Shown here one piece after another: positions 49,101 to 53,121 of a stretch of DNA of 64,000 bases (the stretch's first letter is position 1; every line of letters begins with the position of its first letter). The notes below the pieces were generated by a model. It saw only the letters and a program-made list of their open reading frames with translations, made no database searches and was not told the origin of the DNA. Source of the DNA: Escherichia coli (lineage in GTDB: Bacteria > Pseudomonadota > Gammaproteobacteria > Enterobacterales > Enterobacteriaceae); the NCBI RefSeq assembly GCF_041886205.1, contig NZ_CP169029.1. The stretch is one strand, 5' to 3'. Both the position numbers and the translations under genes were made by a program.

Positions 49101-49455
49101 TACCGGCTCACAGGGTGGTAGCGGTGGAGAAAAAGAGATTATCGCTTCTTACGTGTTAACAGCTTCACTTAGCTACGCACTTTGTCCTGCGGGGAGCCGT
49201 TATCCGCTTTTCGGTACCATTATCCTTGATGAAGCCTTCTCCCGCAGTTCTCATGCGGTGGCGGGTAGGATCATTGCCGCGCTTAGAGAATTTGGCTTAC
49301 ATGCAGTATTTATCACCCCCAATAAGGAAATGCGCCTGCTGCGTGACCATACTCGTTCGGCGATTGTTGTCCACCGGCGCGGTCAGAATTCCAATATGGC
49401 TTCTCTGAGCTGGGAAGAGCTTGAACGACACTACCAGCGACGGGGGAACGCGTAG
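46168..49455 (+). CDS. jetC: Wadjet JetC (SMC/MukB-like ABC ATPase, 1095 aa)
   Basis: Walker A GPTGSGKTT (nt 46294-46320). About 800 aa of E/Q/L/R-rich coiled coil. C-terminal signature-like GGSGGEKE and Walker B TIILDEAF. Confidence 0.88.
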   Translation: MNQVSGLAGKESFILTRIELFNWGGFHGLHQAAIHQDGTAVIGPTGSGKTTLVDALMTLLCANPRYNLASTGGHESDRDLISYVRGVSGPGDGGEGQSHIARPGKTVTGIAATLEREGKQVRLGALLWFDSTSSSVTDMKRLWLFSDNPGQTLEHWLNVYHEGGTRLLRQMEKEAIGLWTYPNKKQYLARLRDFFEVGENAFTLLNRAAGLKQLNSIDEIFRELVLDDHSAFDRAAEVANSFDGLTEIHQELETARKQQQSLQPVALSWEKYQKQERQLADWQTLESLLPLWFAQQANHLWREKINLLNARLAEAQTSEEQLQSQLDLQKKVVSDCMQRYLQVGGANIDELNERIKDWQKTLGSREALARQYQQLTRNLGLPSDLIQPQLEANQHEAAALCEQIAVDIKLKQEEAYQKGALSHHITEELRERENERAEIARRPDSNLPAHYQAFRSELAKALNVDESELPFVAELIQVKPEEAQWRGAIERAVGSNRLRILVAPESAQEALRWVNQRNNRLHVRLLEVKLPHSPARFFDDGFTRKLLWKDHPWREAVKALLAESDRHCVDSPEQLRDTPHAMTVQGLMSGKQRFYDKHDQKRLDEDWLTGFDNRDRLNFLAKEITTLQEQVKTANAAFEFAKGEVGILQNQAASFQKIEQIDFDSIDVPGAKSQLDALRERLENLTRPDSDASVAKAKLDEAQTVESELDKQLRAANKVTNVLDTELTSARAAERKAQQTAQQGMKEEERELCASHFPVVTLEQLPDIRDLERQHERGIQHEIERVKAELHRLNIELTKRMSEAKRVDTGALVEAGTDLDDITVYLQRLQELTEEALPEKLNRFLDYLNRSSDDGVTQLLSHIEHEVLVIEERLNELNETMFRVDFQPYRYLRLDTKKVVHESLRTLEKAQRQLNAARFVDDNGESHYKALQILVAQLRDACERNRTLGAKALLDPRFRLEFAVSVMDRQSGNVIESRTGSQGGSGGEKEIIASYVLTASLSYALCPAGSRYPLFGTIILDEAFSRSSHAVAGRIIAALREFGLHAVFITPNKEMRLLRDHTRSAIVVHRRGQNSNMASLSWEELERHYQRRGNA

Positions 49456-49456
49456 G

Positions 49457-50605
49457 ATGTATTCCCCAGATGAATTGCGTGAAAAGCTTGCCCGGCAGTG
49501 GGATAGCGCAAAACTTCGGGCTGAACGCTTACTGTCCCCCGGTAACTGGCCGCTCTGCCTGCCTATTGGTAAACCTTCCACGAAAATATTTGCAGAGCAG
49601 ACTCAGCGCGTTTTGCAGCACGTACAGCGATGGAGGCAAGTTGCGGTTGGGCACGTGGAATGGGAAGCGGTGAGTTATCGGGCAAGTGATACATCAGTAT
49701 TAATGCCGTTGCGCTGGATTCTGAATAGCCCTTCTGAGTGGATCAACGCCGCTGCGGATCCGGTTGTGAGCCGGGAATTTCGCTTGCTGGAAGGAATTAT
49801 TGAACAAGTTAATCCCATTTTTCACCCGCTGTTGGTAAAGCATCGCTCTCTCTGGCGGCACAAAGATCCGCAGGGCGTCATCAGCGCCGCCACGCTGGCC
49901 TGCCGATTAGAGCCGGGCTGCGCAAAAGGGCTGCCGTTAAGATTGCTTTCCGGGCAAGGAGTGGATACCAAATTTATCGAGAATAATATTTCGTTATTAA
50001 CCCGACTGTTAGACGTGCGGTTTTCAGGAGAAGCCAGCGAGCAGGGATTAACAACTTTTCTTGATGCTTTTGATGAGTCCAGTCACTGGGTTTTAGTTGT
50101 ACCATTATCACCCGGCTTACTTCCTTTTAAAAAATGCCGGGTAACAACGGCGGAACTGGCAGAAACAACATTACCTGCGTCGCAAGTACTGGTGGTTGAA
50201 AATGAGCAGTGTCTGCATCATCTTCCAGCATTATCTGACACTATCGCGATTTTAGGCTGTGGCCTGGACGTGCAATGGCTATCCAGTTCTGTTCTGGATG
50301 AAAAACGCGTTGCTTATTGGGGGGACATGGATAGCTGGGGATTACTGATGCTGGCGAGAGCCAGGCGCTGTCGTCCGACGCTTGATGCCCTGCTCATGAA
50401 CCGTGAGTTGTTTGAGCAGTATGCCAGTCATAGCGCCGTTCCAGAACCGGTCATAGCGAAGGAAGCTGTACCTGATGGCTTGCTTAACGAAGAGGCCGAT
50501 TTTTATCGCTACTTAACCCGTTTACCGTGTGGTCGTCTGGAGCAGGAGTTTTTGCCAGTGGGGATTGCGGAAGAGGTGCTTCTCAGGTGGGGAAAAGAGA
50601 GTTAA
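49457..50605 (+). CDS. jetD: Wadjet JetD (DUF3322/DUF2220-like Toprim nuclease subunit, 382 aa)
   Basis: Sits in ORF 49421..50605. ATG at 49457, 1 nt after the jetC TAG. C-terminal Toprim signature: VVENEQ (around nt 50197) and YWGDMDSWG (DxD, around nt 50331-50351). Confidence 0.85.
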   Translation: MYSPDELREKLARQWDSAKLRAERLLSPGNWPLCLPIGKPSTKIFAEQTQRVLQHVQRWRQVAVGHVEWEAVSYRASDTSVLMPLRWILNSPSEWINAAADPVVSREFRLLEGIIEQVNPIFHPLLVKHRSLWRHKDPQGVISAATLACRLEPGCAKGLPLRLLSGQGVDTKFIENNISLLTRLLDVRFSGEASEQGLTTFLDAFDESSHWVLVVPLSPGLLPFKKCRVTTAELAETTLPASQVLVVENEQCLHHLPALSDTIAILGCGLDVQWLSSSVLDEKRVAYWGDMDSWGLLMLARARRCRPTLDALLMNRELFEQYASHSAVPEPVIAKEAVPDGLLNEEADFYRYLTRLPCGRLEQEFLPVGIAEEVLLRWGKES

Positions 50606-50985: not shown

Positions 50986-51382
50986 GAATGCTTCTATCAT
51001 GTTGATATTATTTTATTTTGTTTGGTTTGGTGAAATATGTACCCTCTTTTGTACCCGCAGTCCCTTTTGATATCGAAAGGGAATCAAACTCGGGGTCAGG
51101 CTGAGAGCACAGAAGGAAAGTGCCTGGCTATTATATCGTTAATTCTGTCAATCAGCTCCAGCCTTTTGAAAGTGATGTGTGCAGATCCACCCTTCTTAAA
51201 GTATTTAATGATGAACATCTCATCTTCATAGCGTCCTTTACCCTGAACGGACTGTATGTGGTCATCCAGATTAATGGTGATATTCCCTCGGTTGTCGGGG
51301 ATCGGTTTACCGCTGAGCAGATGCAACATTCTTTCCAGGTCAGCCAGGCGATCTGCCTGCATTCCACTGATAAGATGAAATC

Positions 51383-52736
51383 TATGGTCACCCCCGTTTT
51401 TGCAACACTGATTTTTGATTAATGGTTGGCTTGCTTAAATCTATCCGGCGTCTCTGTGGGCAAGGATGCCCGCGCCCCGATGAGTTCCGCACCTGATAAT
51501 CCTAAAAATCCCCTCGGCTTCAGTGAGCCATTTCATCTGTTAGGTTTTTAATCAGGTCGATTTGCCGTTCATGTCATCAATAATCAGTCTTCGCAAAACC
51601 AGAAAGGTAACTTGTATCTTATTGTTTAAAATAAACTAATTGAGTTATATCAGCATCTATATCAGGCCTGATATTCTTTTTTCTGAGTAGTGATTGCCCA
51701 GGCAATTCGAGCCAGTTTATTTGCCAGAGCGCAGGTAACCACATTCGAATGCTTCTTGTTGAGTTGCTCCCGAACCCACTCAGCAAGTTTTCCATGCTTG
51801 CGTTCAAGTCGCATTATGAATGAGCGGGCACACTGAACCAGTAACCGGCGTAAATTTTTATCACCTCGCTTACTGATACCCAACAGAGTCGATTTTCCTC
51901 CAGTGCTATACTGCCGGGGAACAAGTCCTGTGGAAGCTGCAAAATCCCTGCTGCATGAGAACTGTTTCCCGTCACCAAGTTGCGACGATAGTAAGCTGGC
52001 AGTAATCGGACCAACACCAGGAATTGTCATAATGCGCTGAGCGGTATCATCAGCGTTGATTGACTGACTTAATTCTGATTCCAGCTCTGCTATTTGCTCA
52101 ACAAGGTAAAAGTAGTGGGTATGCAACCTCACCAAAAGGCGGCTCAGATATTCGGGGATTTCGTGTTCAGCCAACACGAGAGACAACCGTTTTATTACAG
52201 CATCACCTATCGGCAGGCTGATTCCAAATTCCAGCAAGAAACCGTGGATCTGGTTGGTTGTTTTCACTTTATCTCTGATGAGCGATTCTCTGACCCGGTG
52301 TAACGCCCTCATGGCCTGCTGGGTCTCAGTTCTTGGCTGGACAAAACGCATTGATGGTCGTGAAGCCGCTTCGCATATGGCTTCTGCATCAACAAAATCA
52401 TTCTTATTACTTTTGACAAACGGGCGAACGAACTGTGGAGAAATCAGCTTAGTTTCATGCCCAAAATCAGAGATACAGCGAGCCATAAAGTGTGCACCCG
52501 CACAGGCTTCCATTACAACAACTGAGGGCGGACATGTCGCCAGAAACTGCATCAGTTTAGTACGGGTAAATTTTTTACGCAGAAGAGCCTTACCAGACTT
52601 GTCTTGACAATGAATGTGGAAGGAGTGCTTTCCGAGATCGATACCAATAAGTGTGATGTTCTGCATGATGGTCTCTCCGTTAAAGGGATTTACCTTAACA
52701 GCGTACTGCTGTTAAGGTGGGGGTGACCATATCATT
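51383..52736 (-). mobile_element. IS110-family insertion sequence (~1.35 kb, IS1111-like layout with a long 3' non-coding end)
   Basis: Perfect 13-bp inverted repeats TATGGTCACCCCC (51383-51395) and GGGGGTGACCATA (52719-52731). ATC sits on both flanks (51380-82 and 52737-39). Single DEDD-type transposase ORF. Confidence 0.85.
51662..52666 (-). CDS. IS110-family DEDD transposase/recombinase (334 aa)
   Basis: N-terminal LIGIDLGKHSFH (RuvC-like DEDD). C-terminal IPGVGPITASLL...GLVPRQYSTGGKSTLLGISKRGDKNLRRLL, typical of IS110/IS1111 transposases. Confidence 0.9.
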   Translation of the reverse strand: MQNITLIGIDLGKHSFHIHCQDKSGKALLRKKFTRTKLMQFLATCPPSVVVMEACAGAHFMARCISDFGHETKLISPQFVRPFVKSNKNDFVDAEAICEAASRPSMRFVQPRTETQQAMRALHRVRESLIRDKVKTTNQIHGFLLEFGISLPIGDAVIKRLSLVLAEHEIPEYLSRLLVRLHTHYFYLVEQIAELESELSQSINADDTAQRIMTIPGVGPITASLLSSQLGDGKQFSCSRDFAASTGLVPRQYSTGGKSTLLGISKRGDKNLRRLLVQCARSFIMRLERKHGKLAEWVREQLNKKHSNVVTCALANKLARIAWAITTQKKEYQA

Positions 52737-53121
52737 ATCCCCACTGGTCCCATCTCACCAGATTGTTGACGATAATTTTACTGCCAAATTTACAGGGTGA
52801 GTTGGTTTTGTAATCCCAGCTCAGCCCTTTGAAGACGTTGATCACTCCCCGTTCAAACACTTCATCTTTGTTCTGGTGCAGTTGTTCAAATGTGCTCAGA
52901 ATGTTCGCTTCGCTGATTTCCGGAAAATTATCATATTCCAGTGACCTGGACCTGACTGAGGTGGAGCAGATAACGTCCGTATTCTCGTTGACCACTTCCG
53001 GACGGGAGACTGTGATTTCAGACATAATCGATATTCCTTTTTGCAGATAAATGAAAACGCCAGCCGTGTTCAGGCTGGCGTCAGTGGAATGAAGTCTGGT
53101 GAGTGAGATGATGAGTGAGAC

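What the first reader, a model, noticed from the sequence alone, without database searches (positions are those of the whole stretch)
51380..52739. IS110-family element precisely splitting the DUF4942 gene: 13-bp inverted repeats, ATC on both flanks, long non-coding 3' end
**Seen in the sequence**
- The DUF4942 reading frame stops at ...VRWDQWG (52738) and resumes in frame as FHLISGMQADRL... (51380). Removing 51383-52739 recreates GATGAAATCCCCACTGG and one continuous ORF.
- The element has perfect 13-bp inverted repeats. TATGGTCACCCCC sits exactly at one end. GGGGGTGACCATA sits 5 nt (TCATT) from the other end, so that repeat is subterminal.
- The trinucleotide ATC is present on both sides.
- The single ORF is a DEDD (IS110-type) recombinase.
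- Only about 70 nt lie upstream of the ORF. They include a perfect 10-bp hairpin, CCTTAACAGC-GTACT-GCTGTTAAGG, at 52693-52717. About 280 nt of non-coding DNA lie downstream (51383-51661).

**Established knowledge**
- Subterminal inverted repeats and a long 3' non-coding region characterise the IS1111 subgroup.
- Elements of this family insert site-specifically.
Basis: partly seen in the sequence, partly recalled or inferred. Interest (0 to 1): 0.5.

Follow-up and report, generated by a model that had tools for sequence, protein, structure and literature searches.

The report
ISSfl8 insertion sequence in DUF4942 gene
This is an intact copy of the catalogued insertion sequence ISSfl8, an RNA-guided IS110/IS1111-type element, sitting at its usual target inside a DUF4942 gene; it is a clear but ordinary example of a mechanism described in 2024.

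Summary
The element is a 1357-bp copy of ISSfl8 (IS110 family, IS1111 group). It is 100% identical to copies that NCBI annotates under that name. It splits a DUF4942 gene between a Gly and a Phe codon, and thousands of E. coli genomes carry the uninterrupted site.

One detail needs correcting. About 55 relatives and three uninterrupted sites place the conserved termini at TAATGA...CCATAGA (window 52737 to 51381). Both inverted repeats are therefore subterminal and there is no target duplication. The repeated ATC/GAT exists only because this target reads GA before the one base (T) that donor and target share.

The 3' non-coding region encodes a two-domain structured RNA of the seekRNA/bridge-RNA type. 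Two loop segments, AGATGAAAT and GGGGATTT, match opposite strands of the DUF4942 site across the insertion point. In 34 non-redundant relatives with other targets, these segments change to match their own targets (0 of 20,000 permutations did as well). The stems show compensatory changes.

Near-identical ISSfl8 copies lie at the same position in DUF4942 paralogs whose flanks are only about 78% identical, so insertion has recurred.

Verdict: an already known element and a known mechanism. Interest is low.

The parts
52738..53025 (-). 5' part of the interrupted DUF4942 gene. It ends ...TGG GGA, and the element's first three bases (TAA) supply a stop codon.
   Evidence: ORF list. The joined halves match PF13708 at E 8e-54. 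The uninterrupted site is found.
51381..52737 (-). ISSfl8 element, 1357 bp, with termini TAATGA...CCATAGA. The equivalent placement 51380-52736 is equally valid because one T is shared with the target.
   Evidence: [quoted passage not shown] Termini come from about 55 relatives and uninterrupted sites.
52732..52737 (-). Left terminal extension TAATGA, outside the left subterminal repeat. TAAT forms part of the predicted -10 box once the ends are joined.
   Evidence: Conserved as TAATGAG or TAATGGG in relatives. Junction promoter prediction.
52719..52731 (-). Left subterminal inverted repeat TATGGTCACCCCC (sense strand).
   Evidence: The core ATGGTCACC is conserved, with matching changes in the right repeat in relatives.
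52692..52718 (-). Left-end hairpin ACCTTAACAGC-AGTAC-GCTGTTAAGGT, lying between the repeat and the ribosome-binding site.
   Evidence: Compensatory changes in relatives (columns 25-31 with 41-47). Function not established.
51662..52666 (-). Transposase gene, 334 aa. The D10, E53, D90, D93 and T255-G256 motifs are intact.
   Evidence: PF01548 and PF02371. NF033542 'IS110 family RNA-guided transposase', 351 bits against a cut-off of 140. Aligned to IS621 and ISCro4 transposase structures. Residue numbers.
51492..51556 (-). Predicted seekRNA/bridge-RNA domain 1, the target-binding loop. It has outer stem P1 (CCTGAT/ATCAGG), stem P2 (CCTAA/TTAGG), an internal loop carrying the two guides, and hairpin P3.
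   Evidence: Fold. RNAalifold and pair counts on 42 sequences: 97.4% of cells paired against 25-40% when slid, and 88 double changes against 30.6 in shuffles.
51530..51538 (-). Guide T, AGATGAAAT. It is complementary to the target top strand ATTTCATCT (right side of the insertion point).
   Evidence: Longest exact match between the non-coding region and the target. This position is hypervariable in relatives and tracks their right flanks.
51516..51529 (-). Hairpin P3, GGCTCACTGAAGCC, separating the two guides.
   Evidence: column pair 38-51 is GC in 35 sequences and AU in 6.
51506..51513 (-). Guide B, GGGGATTT. It is identical to the target top strand across the insertion point and so complementary to the bottom strand.
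   Evidence: Its two variable bases equal the two bases left of TAATGA in relatives.
51434..51486 (-). RNA domain 2. It has stems P4 (GGCG/CGCC) and P5 (a hairpin with compensatory changes), flanked by invariant loops AACUCAUCG and GGAUAGAUUUAAG. It is a candidate donor-binding domain.
   Evidence: all four pairs of helix 6 show double changes. The loops match left-end ATGAG and right-end ATAGA+T, but loops and ends are all invariant, so there is no covariation test.
51400..51405 (-). TTGCAA, the predicted -35 box of a promoter completed only when the ends are joined (TTGCAA, 17 nt, GATAAT).
   Evidence: The same boxes and spacing occur in 47 of 54 relatives. The function is inferred from ISEc11/ISEc21 in PMC11187229.
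51383..51395 (-). Right subterminal inverted repeat GGGGGTGACCATA (sense strand), followed by the terminal bases GA (51382-51381).
51096..51380 (-). 3' part of the interrupted DUF4942 gene. It resumes TTT CAT CTT...

Best explanation
**What it is**

Window 51381-52737 (minus strand) is an intact, probably active copy of ISSfl8. ISSfl8 is an IS1111-group member of the IS110 family, in the IS4321/IS5075/IS1328 clade.

**How it most likely works**

- It moves by the RNA-guided DEDD-recombinase route described in 2024.
- Its 3' non-coding region gives rise to a structured RNA (seekRNA/bridge RNA). An internal loop in that RNA carries two short guides.
- AGAUGAAAU pairs with the top strand to the right of the insertion point. 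GGGGAUUU pairs with the bottom strand across it.
- Together the guides specify the sequence GGGGA|TTTCATCT, which lies in DUF4942 genes of CP4-type islands.
- The recombinase exchanges strands at the single T shared by this target and the joined element ends (CCATAGA-T-AATGA). The element is therefore inserted in one orientation with no duplication.

**Shown here**

- The identity of the element, its boundaries and the empty site.
- The guide-target matches and their co-variation across relatives.
- The RNA stems with compensatory changes.
- Recurrent insertion at the same site.

**Inferred from the literature on relatives**

- The RNA is made and bound by the transposase.
- A circular intermediate forms, with a junction promoter TTGCAA-17-GATAAT.
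- The second RNA domain reads the element ends.
For: **Identity**
- The copy is 100% or 99.9% identical to copies annotated ISSfl8. 84 records carry copies at 99% identity or more, nearly all inside DUF4942 genes.
- The protein matches PF01548 and PF02371 and NF033542 'IS110 family RNA-guided transposase'. The catalytic D/E/D/D residues and the T-G motif align with IS621.
- A supplement of PMC11187229 places the ISSfl8 transposase at about 70% identity to IS4321/IS5075.

**Boundaries**
- Termini are conserved in about 55 relatives.

**Guides**
- The two longest exact matches between the non-coding region and the target (9 and 8 nt) both span the insertion point and flank a hairpin. By chance, 0.07 and 0.29 such matches would be expected anywhere in the region.
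- The non-coding region of relatives is nearly invariant except at these two segments.
- In 34 non-redundant loci, guides scored against their own targets total 14.9 of 21 positions. Permuted pairings score 9.8 +/- 0.45, and 0 of 20,000 reach the observed value.
- The guide complementary to the top strand lies 5' of the one complementary to the bottom strand. This is the order reported for IS1111 seekRNAs (PMC11187229).

**Structure**

**Recurrence**
- Near-identical elements lie at the same position in paralogs whose flanks are 77-79% identical, at different chromosomal loci.
- The target is kept, or differs by 1-2 bases, in empty paralogs.
Against: - There is no experimental evidence here for the RNA, the circle or activity.
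- Rfam 15 has no matching family, so the RNA assignment rests on my own comparative analysis.
- Folding of the 136-nt region alone is not unusually stable (z = -1.5).
- Donor-end recognition by domain 2 is untested. Its loops and the element ends are all invariant. In this copy the left end reads TAATGAT rather than TAATGAG, which removes one of only five proposed pairs.
- One relative (L002) has a guide B that mismatches its site at one of the two variable bases. Its transposase is a pseudogene.
Confidence: 0.9

Rival explanations
1. The element is 51383-52736, and ATC/GAT is a 3-bp target-site duplication or a fixed recombination core. One inverted repeat would be exactly terminal.
For: GAT is present on both sides. 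Removing the element plus one GAT restores the gene. Within this one copy the boundary cannot be fixed more closely than 3 nt.
Against: All relatives end ...CCATAGA and begin TAATGA, while the two bases to the left vary: GC, CC, TC, TT and others. The uninterrupted sites of L003 and L004 equal left flank plus right flank with no duplicated bases. The IS4321-like loci rebuild a continuous sequence, CTTTATT|TTCCGTTTTCTGAGACGACCCC. From memory, that sequence is the Tn21-family terminal repeat. The variable two bases co-vary with guide B, so they are target bases.
Confidence: 0.04
2. Target choice is made by the protein alone. The conserved 3' non-coding region would then serve other purposes, such as a promoter, a terminator or end binding.
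For: The region also holds the -35 box and the right repeat. No Rfam family matches. Donor recognition by RNA is not demonstrated here.
Against: The only hypervariable positions in an otherwise conserved region match each element's own target on both strands. The stems show compensatory changes. Experiments on the relatives ISEc11, ISKpn4 and ISPa11 show that the non-coding RNA is essential and programmable (PMC11187229).
Confidence: 0.04
3. All ISSfl8-in-DUF4942 copies descend from one ancestral insertion that spread with the island by duplication or horizontal transfer. There would be no repeated targeting.
For: CP4-type islands are mobile and duplicated. A published analysis treated a shared ISSfl8-like insertion as a mark of common ancestry (PMC7371111). 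Many of the 84 near-identical copies probably are inherited.
Against: The element is 99.9-100% identical between copies whose DUF4942 flanks are only 77-79% identical, and the copies lie at different loci: near setC/yicL, at tRNA-Ser/infA and near cadC. This implies arrival long after the paralogs diverged. Relatives with other guides sit in other targets.
Confidence: 0.08

Closest known systems
ISSfl8 (ISfinder entry from Shigella flexneri; IS110 family, IS1111 group)
   Same: [quoted passage not shown] In the Shigella SRL island, the ISSfl8 transposase gene also lies beside a DUF4942 gene (PMC6980539).
   Different: None was found. I could not compare directly with the ISfinder nucleotide entry, so the recorded ends may differ from the TAATGA...CCATAGA termini derived here.
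IS4321 / IS5075 (IS1111 group; target the terminal repeats of Tn21-family transposons)
   Same: Transposase about 70% identical. Identical termini TAATGAG...CCATAGA, the same subterminal repeats, the same two-domain RNA architecture and no duplication.
   Different: The guides read AAAACGGAA and TATATTTTC and match the transposon terminal repeat instead of DUF4942.
ISEc11, ISKpn4 and ISPa11 seekRNA systems (Siddiquee et al. 2024, PMC11187229)
   Same: The non-coding region lies 3' of tnp. [quoted passage not shown] A junction promoter forms on circularisation. There is no duplication.
   Different: The ISEc11 transposase is only about 35% identical to ISSfl8's. Nothing has been tested experimentally for ISSfl8. 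The RNA ends are unknown.
IS621 bridge RNA and recombinase (Durrant et al. 2024, PMC11208160; structures 8wt6-8wt9)
   Same: DEDD/RuvC-like domain plus a C-terminal domain with the S/T-G motif. The RNA has separate target and (predicted) donor domains. Both target strands are read.
   Different: The IS621 RNA lies in the 5' end and its repeats are very short. It uses a CT dinucleotide core shared by donor and target, whereas here only a single T is shared. The two proteins align only weakly (E about 1e-14).

Membership tests
IS110 family | DEDD (RuvC-like) N-terminal catalytic domain | tested here: met
   PF01548 at E 2e-20. D10, E53, D90 and D93 align with the IS621 catalytic positions.
IS110 family | C-terminal PF02371 domain with a G--P----S/T-G motif | tested here: met
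   PF02371 at E 6e-23. GLVPRQYSTG at residues 247-256. The motif is as defined in PMC11187229.
IS110 family | Curated whole-protein model for the family | tested here: met
   NF033542 'IS110 family RNA-guided transposase', 351 bits against a cut-off of 140.
IS1111 group | Subterminal inverted repeats of 7-17 bp | tested here: met
   A 13-bp perfect repeat, set 6 nt in from the left end and 2 nt in from the right end.
IS1111 group | The longer non-coding region lies downstream of tnp | tested here: met
   281 nt downstream against 71 nt upstream.
IS1111 group | Site-specific insertion without target duplication | tested here: met
   Empty sites. The same position is used in diverged paralogs.
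seekRNA / bridge-RNA guided elements | The non-coding region contains two segments complementary to opposite strands of the target, overlapping at the insertion point, with the top-strand match 5' in IS1111 types | tested here: met
   The co-variation test across 34 loci gave 0 of 20,000 permutations reaching the observed score.
seekRNA / bridge-RNA guided elements | The guides sit in loops of a conserved RNA secondary structure | tested here: met
   Helices 1, 3 and 6 show compensatory changes.
seekRNA / bridge-RNA guided elements | The RNA is expressed, binds the transposase and is needed for movement | not testable with these tools
   This needs RNA sequencing, pull-down and transposition assays.
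seekRNA / bridge-RNA guided elements | A donor-binding loop complementary to the element ends | tested here: inconclusive
   The domain 2 loops contain CUCAU (matching left-end ATGAG) and AUAGAU (matching right-end ATAGA+T). Loops and ends are all invariant, so there is no co-variation. This copy has ATGAT at that position.
seekRNA / bridge-RNA guided elements | A circular intermediate whose junction creates a promoter | tested here: inconclusive
   Joining the ends in silico gives TTGCAA-17 nt-GATAAT, conserved in 47 of 54 relatives. The circle itself was not observed.
ISSfl8 (named element) | At least 95% nucleotide identity to the ISfinder reference | not tested
   ISfinder is not available here. 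The name rests on NCBI annotation of the identical protein.

The most novel reading that the evidence does not exclude
The ISSfl8/IS4321/IS1328 clade may be a natural reprogramming series in which a full two-domain bridge RNA reads both target and donor. Its invariant second domain (loops ACUCAUCG and GGAUAGAUUU) would recognise the fixed ends TAATGAG and CCATAGA. Recombination would need only a single shared T rather than a dinucleotide core. The constant U-run of the guides would confine every target in the clade to N5-6|T(TT)N6-8. A left-end fold-back (GAUGGU in the repeat pairing with ACCAUC before the AUG), together with a co-varying hairpin, might also restrict transposase translation to transcripts made from the circle-junction promoter.
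Probability: 0.3. Interest if true: 0.4.

Novelty: already known. Interest (0 to 1): 0.2.

Why it matters
- **For annotation.** The split DUF4942 gene is one gene interrupted by a mobile element. The 281 nt after the transposase gene are a functional RNA region, not spacer.
- **For comparative genomics.** ISSfl8 re-inserts at the same codon junction in different DUF4942 paralogs. A shared ISSfl8 insertion is therefore a weak marker of common ancestry between islands, although it has been used that way (PMC7371111).
- **For the field.** The clade offers more than 20 naturally retargeted guide/target pairs with fixed ends. These could be useful comparative data for the design rules of IS1111-type guides. 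The principle itself is not new.

Tried and rejected
- **Rfam.** A scan of 51000-53100 at E up to 1 gave no hit.
- **ATTATC as a donor guide.** I first read ATTATC (51495-51500) as a guide complementary to the circle junction GATAAT. I rejected this because it is the 3' half of outer stem P1, which shows many compensatory changes.
- **L001 as a counter-example.** L001 seemed to contradict guide T, matching at only 5 of 11 positions. Its uninterrupted site has two more T bases than the occupied site, and the guide matches that site over 8 contiguous nt.
- **Orphan guide RNAs.** I checked partial matches for copies of the RNA region without a transposase.
  - H69 is a degenerate relative with a frameshifted transposase.
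  - H81 is a right end truncated by an IS4 element.
  - H88 is a 60-bp left-end remnant followed by a deletion.
- **Co-variation for donor loops.** I looked for relatives with altered ends. All have TAATGAG/TAATGGG and CCATAGA. Three loci have an unresolved left boundary.
- **Partridge and Hall 2003.** This paper on the IS4321/IS5075 ends is not held in the library.
- **Other target copies in the window.** A search for the target motif found only one 2-mismatch hit, which is at chance level.
Full report

Yes.
- The perfect 13-bp inverted repeats lie at 51383-51395 and 52719-52731. The hairpin lies at 52692-52718, with arms of 11 bp.
- The only long ORF, 51662-52666 on the minus strand (334 aa), matches PF01548 (DEDD_Tnp_IS110) and PF02371. 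It also matches NCBIfam NF033542 'IS110 family RNA-guided transposase' at 351 bits against a cut-off of 140.
- D10, E53, D90, D93 and T255-G256 align with the catalytic positions of the solved IS621 transposase.
- The two DUF4942 fragments, once joined, give a full-length PF13708 match.
- The joined 276-nt flank occurs uninterrupted at 100% identity in an annotated DUF4942 gene. At least 80% of it is found in 3621 of 5426 complete E. coli genomes.

**2. What is it?**

- The 1357-bp element is 100% identical to a copy in E. coli ZYB39 and 99.9% identical to dozens of others. [quoted passage not shown]
- 84 records hold copies at 99% identity or more, and nearly all lie within DUF4942 genes.
- The transposase-identity table in the supplement of Siddiquee et al. 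2024 lists ISSfl8 at about 70% identity to IS4321/IS5075 and 78% to ISPlu13.
- The Shigella SRL island, where ISSfl8 was named, has the same gene order: DUF4942 followed by the ISSfl8 transposase (PMC6980539).
- This is a known element at a known location.

**3. Boundaries**

- Within this copy the repeated GAT (ATC on the plus strand) makes the ends ambiguous by 3 nt.
- I fetched four E. coli relatives at 84-96% identity and 80 loci from other species.
- All 50 or so loci where both repeats are recognisable begin TAATGA(G) or TAATGG(G), just before ATGGTCACC. They end GGTGACCAT-AGA. Three loci with an unresolved left boundary are the exception.
- The two bases to the left of TAATGA vary from locus to locus.
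- For two relatives I found the uninterrupted site: a plasmid methyltransferase gene and an IS3-family transposase gene. Each equals left flank plus right flank exactly, GCGGGCC|TTTTCCC and CCGGGTC|TTTTTTATG.
- The IS4321-like loci likewise rebuild a continuous sequence, CTTTATT|TTCCGTTTTCTGAGACGACCCC. From memory, this is the Tn21-type terminal repeat.
- The element is therefore TAATGA...CCATAGA, window 52737 to 51381. One T is shared with the target, so 52736-51380 is an equivalent placement.
- Both repeats are subterminal, set 6 nt and 2 nt in from the ends. Nothing is duplicated.

**4. The 3' non-coding region encodes a guide RNA**

*Guide matches in this copy*
- The two longest exact matches between the 279-nt region and a 42-nt window around the empty site are AGATGAAAT and GGGGATTT.
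  - AGATGAAAT (51538-51530) is the complement of the top strand ATTTCATCT.
  - GGGGATTT (51513-51506) is identical to the top strand.
- Both span the insertion point. About 0.07 and 0.29 such matches would be expected by chance.
- They sit on either side of the hairpin GGCTCACTGAAGCC, inside stems CCTAA/TTAGG and CCTGAT/ATCAGG.

*Co-variation with targets in relatives*
- When the region is aligned across relatives, it is almost invariant except at exactly these two segments.
- The variable bases follow each element's own flanks. Guide B reads GGG-GA/GC/CC/TC-TTT where the left flank ends GGG-GA/GC/CC/TC.
- Further examples:

| Locus | Guide T | Target sequence it pairs with |
|---|---|---|
| L032 | AGCATGAAAAT | TTTTCATGCT |
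| L065 | GTAGTTCAAAT | TTTGAACT |
| IS4321-like loci | AAAACGGAA | TTCCGTTTT |

- I scored 34 non-redundant loci in a fixed register.
  - Guides against their own targets matched at 6.8 of 11 positions (guide T) and 8.1 of 10 (guide B). Against other loci's targets, both averaged 4.8.
  - The summed score was 14.9, against 9.8 +/- 0.45 for permuted pairings. None of 20,000 permutations reached the observed value.
  - The test is conservative, because several distant loci are offset by one register.
- L001 was the one apparent outlier. Its uninterrupted site carries two more T bases, and its guide matches that site over 8 contiguous nt.

*Secondary structure*
- The consensus from 42 sequences pairs 97.4% of cells, against 25-40% when partners are slid.
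- It has 88 doubly changed cells, against 30.6 in shuffles, and 0 of 500 shuffles reach the observed values.
- Compensatory changes are concentrated in P1, P3 and the domain 2 hairpin.

*Agreement with published work*
- The order of the guides, with the top-strand match 5' of the bottom-strand match, and their overlap at the insertion point are what Siddiquee et al. report for IS1111-type seekRNAs.
- Durrant et al. predicted bridge RNAs in the right end of 93% of IS1111 elements.

**5. Recurrent targeting**

- Copies that are 99.9-100% identical lie at the same position in DUF4942 genes near setC/yicL, at tRNA-Ser/infA and near cadC.
- The first two have flanks only 77-79% identical to the window's.
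- Unoccupied paralogs at 85-87% identity keep the 13-mer exactly or with 1-2 changes.
- The element has therefore entered this site more than once.

**6. Mechanism**

*Shown here*
- Identity, boundaries, empty site, guide-target complementarity and its co-variation, RNA stems, and repeated use of the site.

*Inferred from experiments on relatives* (PMC11187229, PMC11208160, PMC13626964)
- The RNA is processed from a transcript of the element and bound by the transposase.
- The element excises as a circle. The abutted ends create the promoter TTGCAA-17 nt-GATAAT, and these boxes and their spacing are conserved in 47 of 54 relatives.
- The recombinase-RNA complex pairs the guides with both strands of GGGGA|TTTCATCT and exchanges strands at the shared T.

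*Unresolved*
- It is not clear how the ends are read.
- Domain 2 has invariant loops containing CUCAU (left-end ATGAG) and AUAGAU (right-end ATAGA+T). Neither the loops nor the ends vary, so there is no test.
- This copy has ATGAT at the left end.

**7. Comparison and novelty**

- Every defining feature of the IS110 family and IS1111 group that can be tested by sequence is met.
- The guide-RNA features that can be tested by sequence are also met.
- Expression, binding and the circle are not testable here.
- The element is catalogued and the mechanism was published in 2024.
- To my knowledge the guide-target assignment for ISSfl8 has not been spelled out. I found no paper that does so among the nine that mention ISSfl8. 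It is, however, a direct application of known rules.
- I rate this 'already known', with low interest.

**8. Dead ends**

- Rfam gave no hit.
- My first candidate donor guide, ATTATC, proved to be half of stem P1.
- Apparent 'orphan' copies of the RNA region were degenerate or truncated elements.
- The 2003 paper on the IS4321/IS5075 ends is not held in the library.

Noticed in passing
window 49421-50605 (+): A 394-aa ORF matches DUF3322 plus JetD_C. It is the JetD component of a Wadjet anti-plasmid system, and it lies a few hundred bases beyond the end of the island arm that carries DUF4942.
   Followed up: partly
window 52667-52672 and 52725-52730 (minus strand): ACCATC, immediately 5' of the transposase ATG, is complementary to GATGGT inside the left subterminal repeat. 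RNAalifold pairs them in 24 of 26 relatives, but the pairs never co-vary. This could be a fold-back that blocks translation of read-through transcripts.
   Followed up: partly
window 52692-52718; relatives in alignment A2: The left-end hairpin keeps its pairing through compensatory changes. In most relatives it is followed by a U-rich run, like an intrinsic terminator placed just before the transposase ribosome-binding site. In this copy the run is weaker.
   Followed up: partly
window 51583-51600 with 51396-51412: A possible long-range stem, GGTTTTGCGAAGACTGAT with ATCAGTGTTGCAAAAAC, would enclose the whole guide RNA region and overlap the -35 box. The CTGAT/ATCAG pairing becomes CTGGA/TCCAG in L043.
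   Followed up: partly
L001 2857-2870 versus L090: A 96%-identical relative lies next to tssE. Its occupied site lacks two T bases at the right junction, compared with the uninterrupted site GGGGCTTTTATTTTCGG.
   Followed up: yes
L009, L031, L033 (left ends): Three Xenorhabdus/Photorhabdus relatives have ATACAAG instead of TAATGAG before the left repeat. The 25 nt further left are identical in all three species and do not match their guide B. Their true left boundary is unresolved.
   Followed up: no
L037 around 2700: A Symbiopectobacterium relative carries a 23-nt internal duplication inside the guide RNA domain.
   Followed up: no
L002 (plasmid p48B2a): Guide B reads GGGGC while the occupied site reads GGGTC. 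The transposase there is a pseudogene. L004, in the same IS3-family site, has the matching guide GGGTC.
   Followed up: partly
L072-L084, domain 2 of the RNA: In the IS4321-like loci the 3' loop of domain 2 reads ATAGATTC and their right flank starts TTCCG. In most other relatives the loop reads ATAGATTT and the flank starts TTT. This is a weak hint of a 'handshake'-type contact, and other lineages do not follow it.
   Followed up: partly
L091 2501-2560; L092 2001-2145: There are remnants of ISSfl8-type elements. One is a 60-bp left end in a DUF4942 gene, followed by a deletion reaching an integrase remnant beside cadC. The other is a 145-bp right end cut by an IS4-family element.
   Followed up: yes
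literature, PMC7371111: A shared ISSfl8-like insertion was used as evidence that two ST58 pathogenicity islands descend from one island. Site-specific re-insertion weakens that argument.
   Followed up: no
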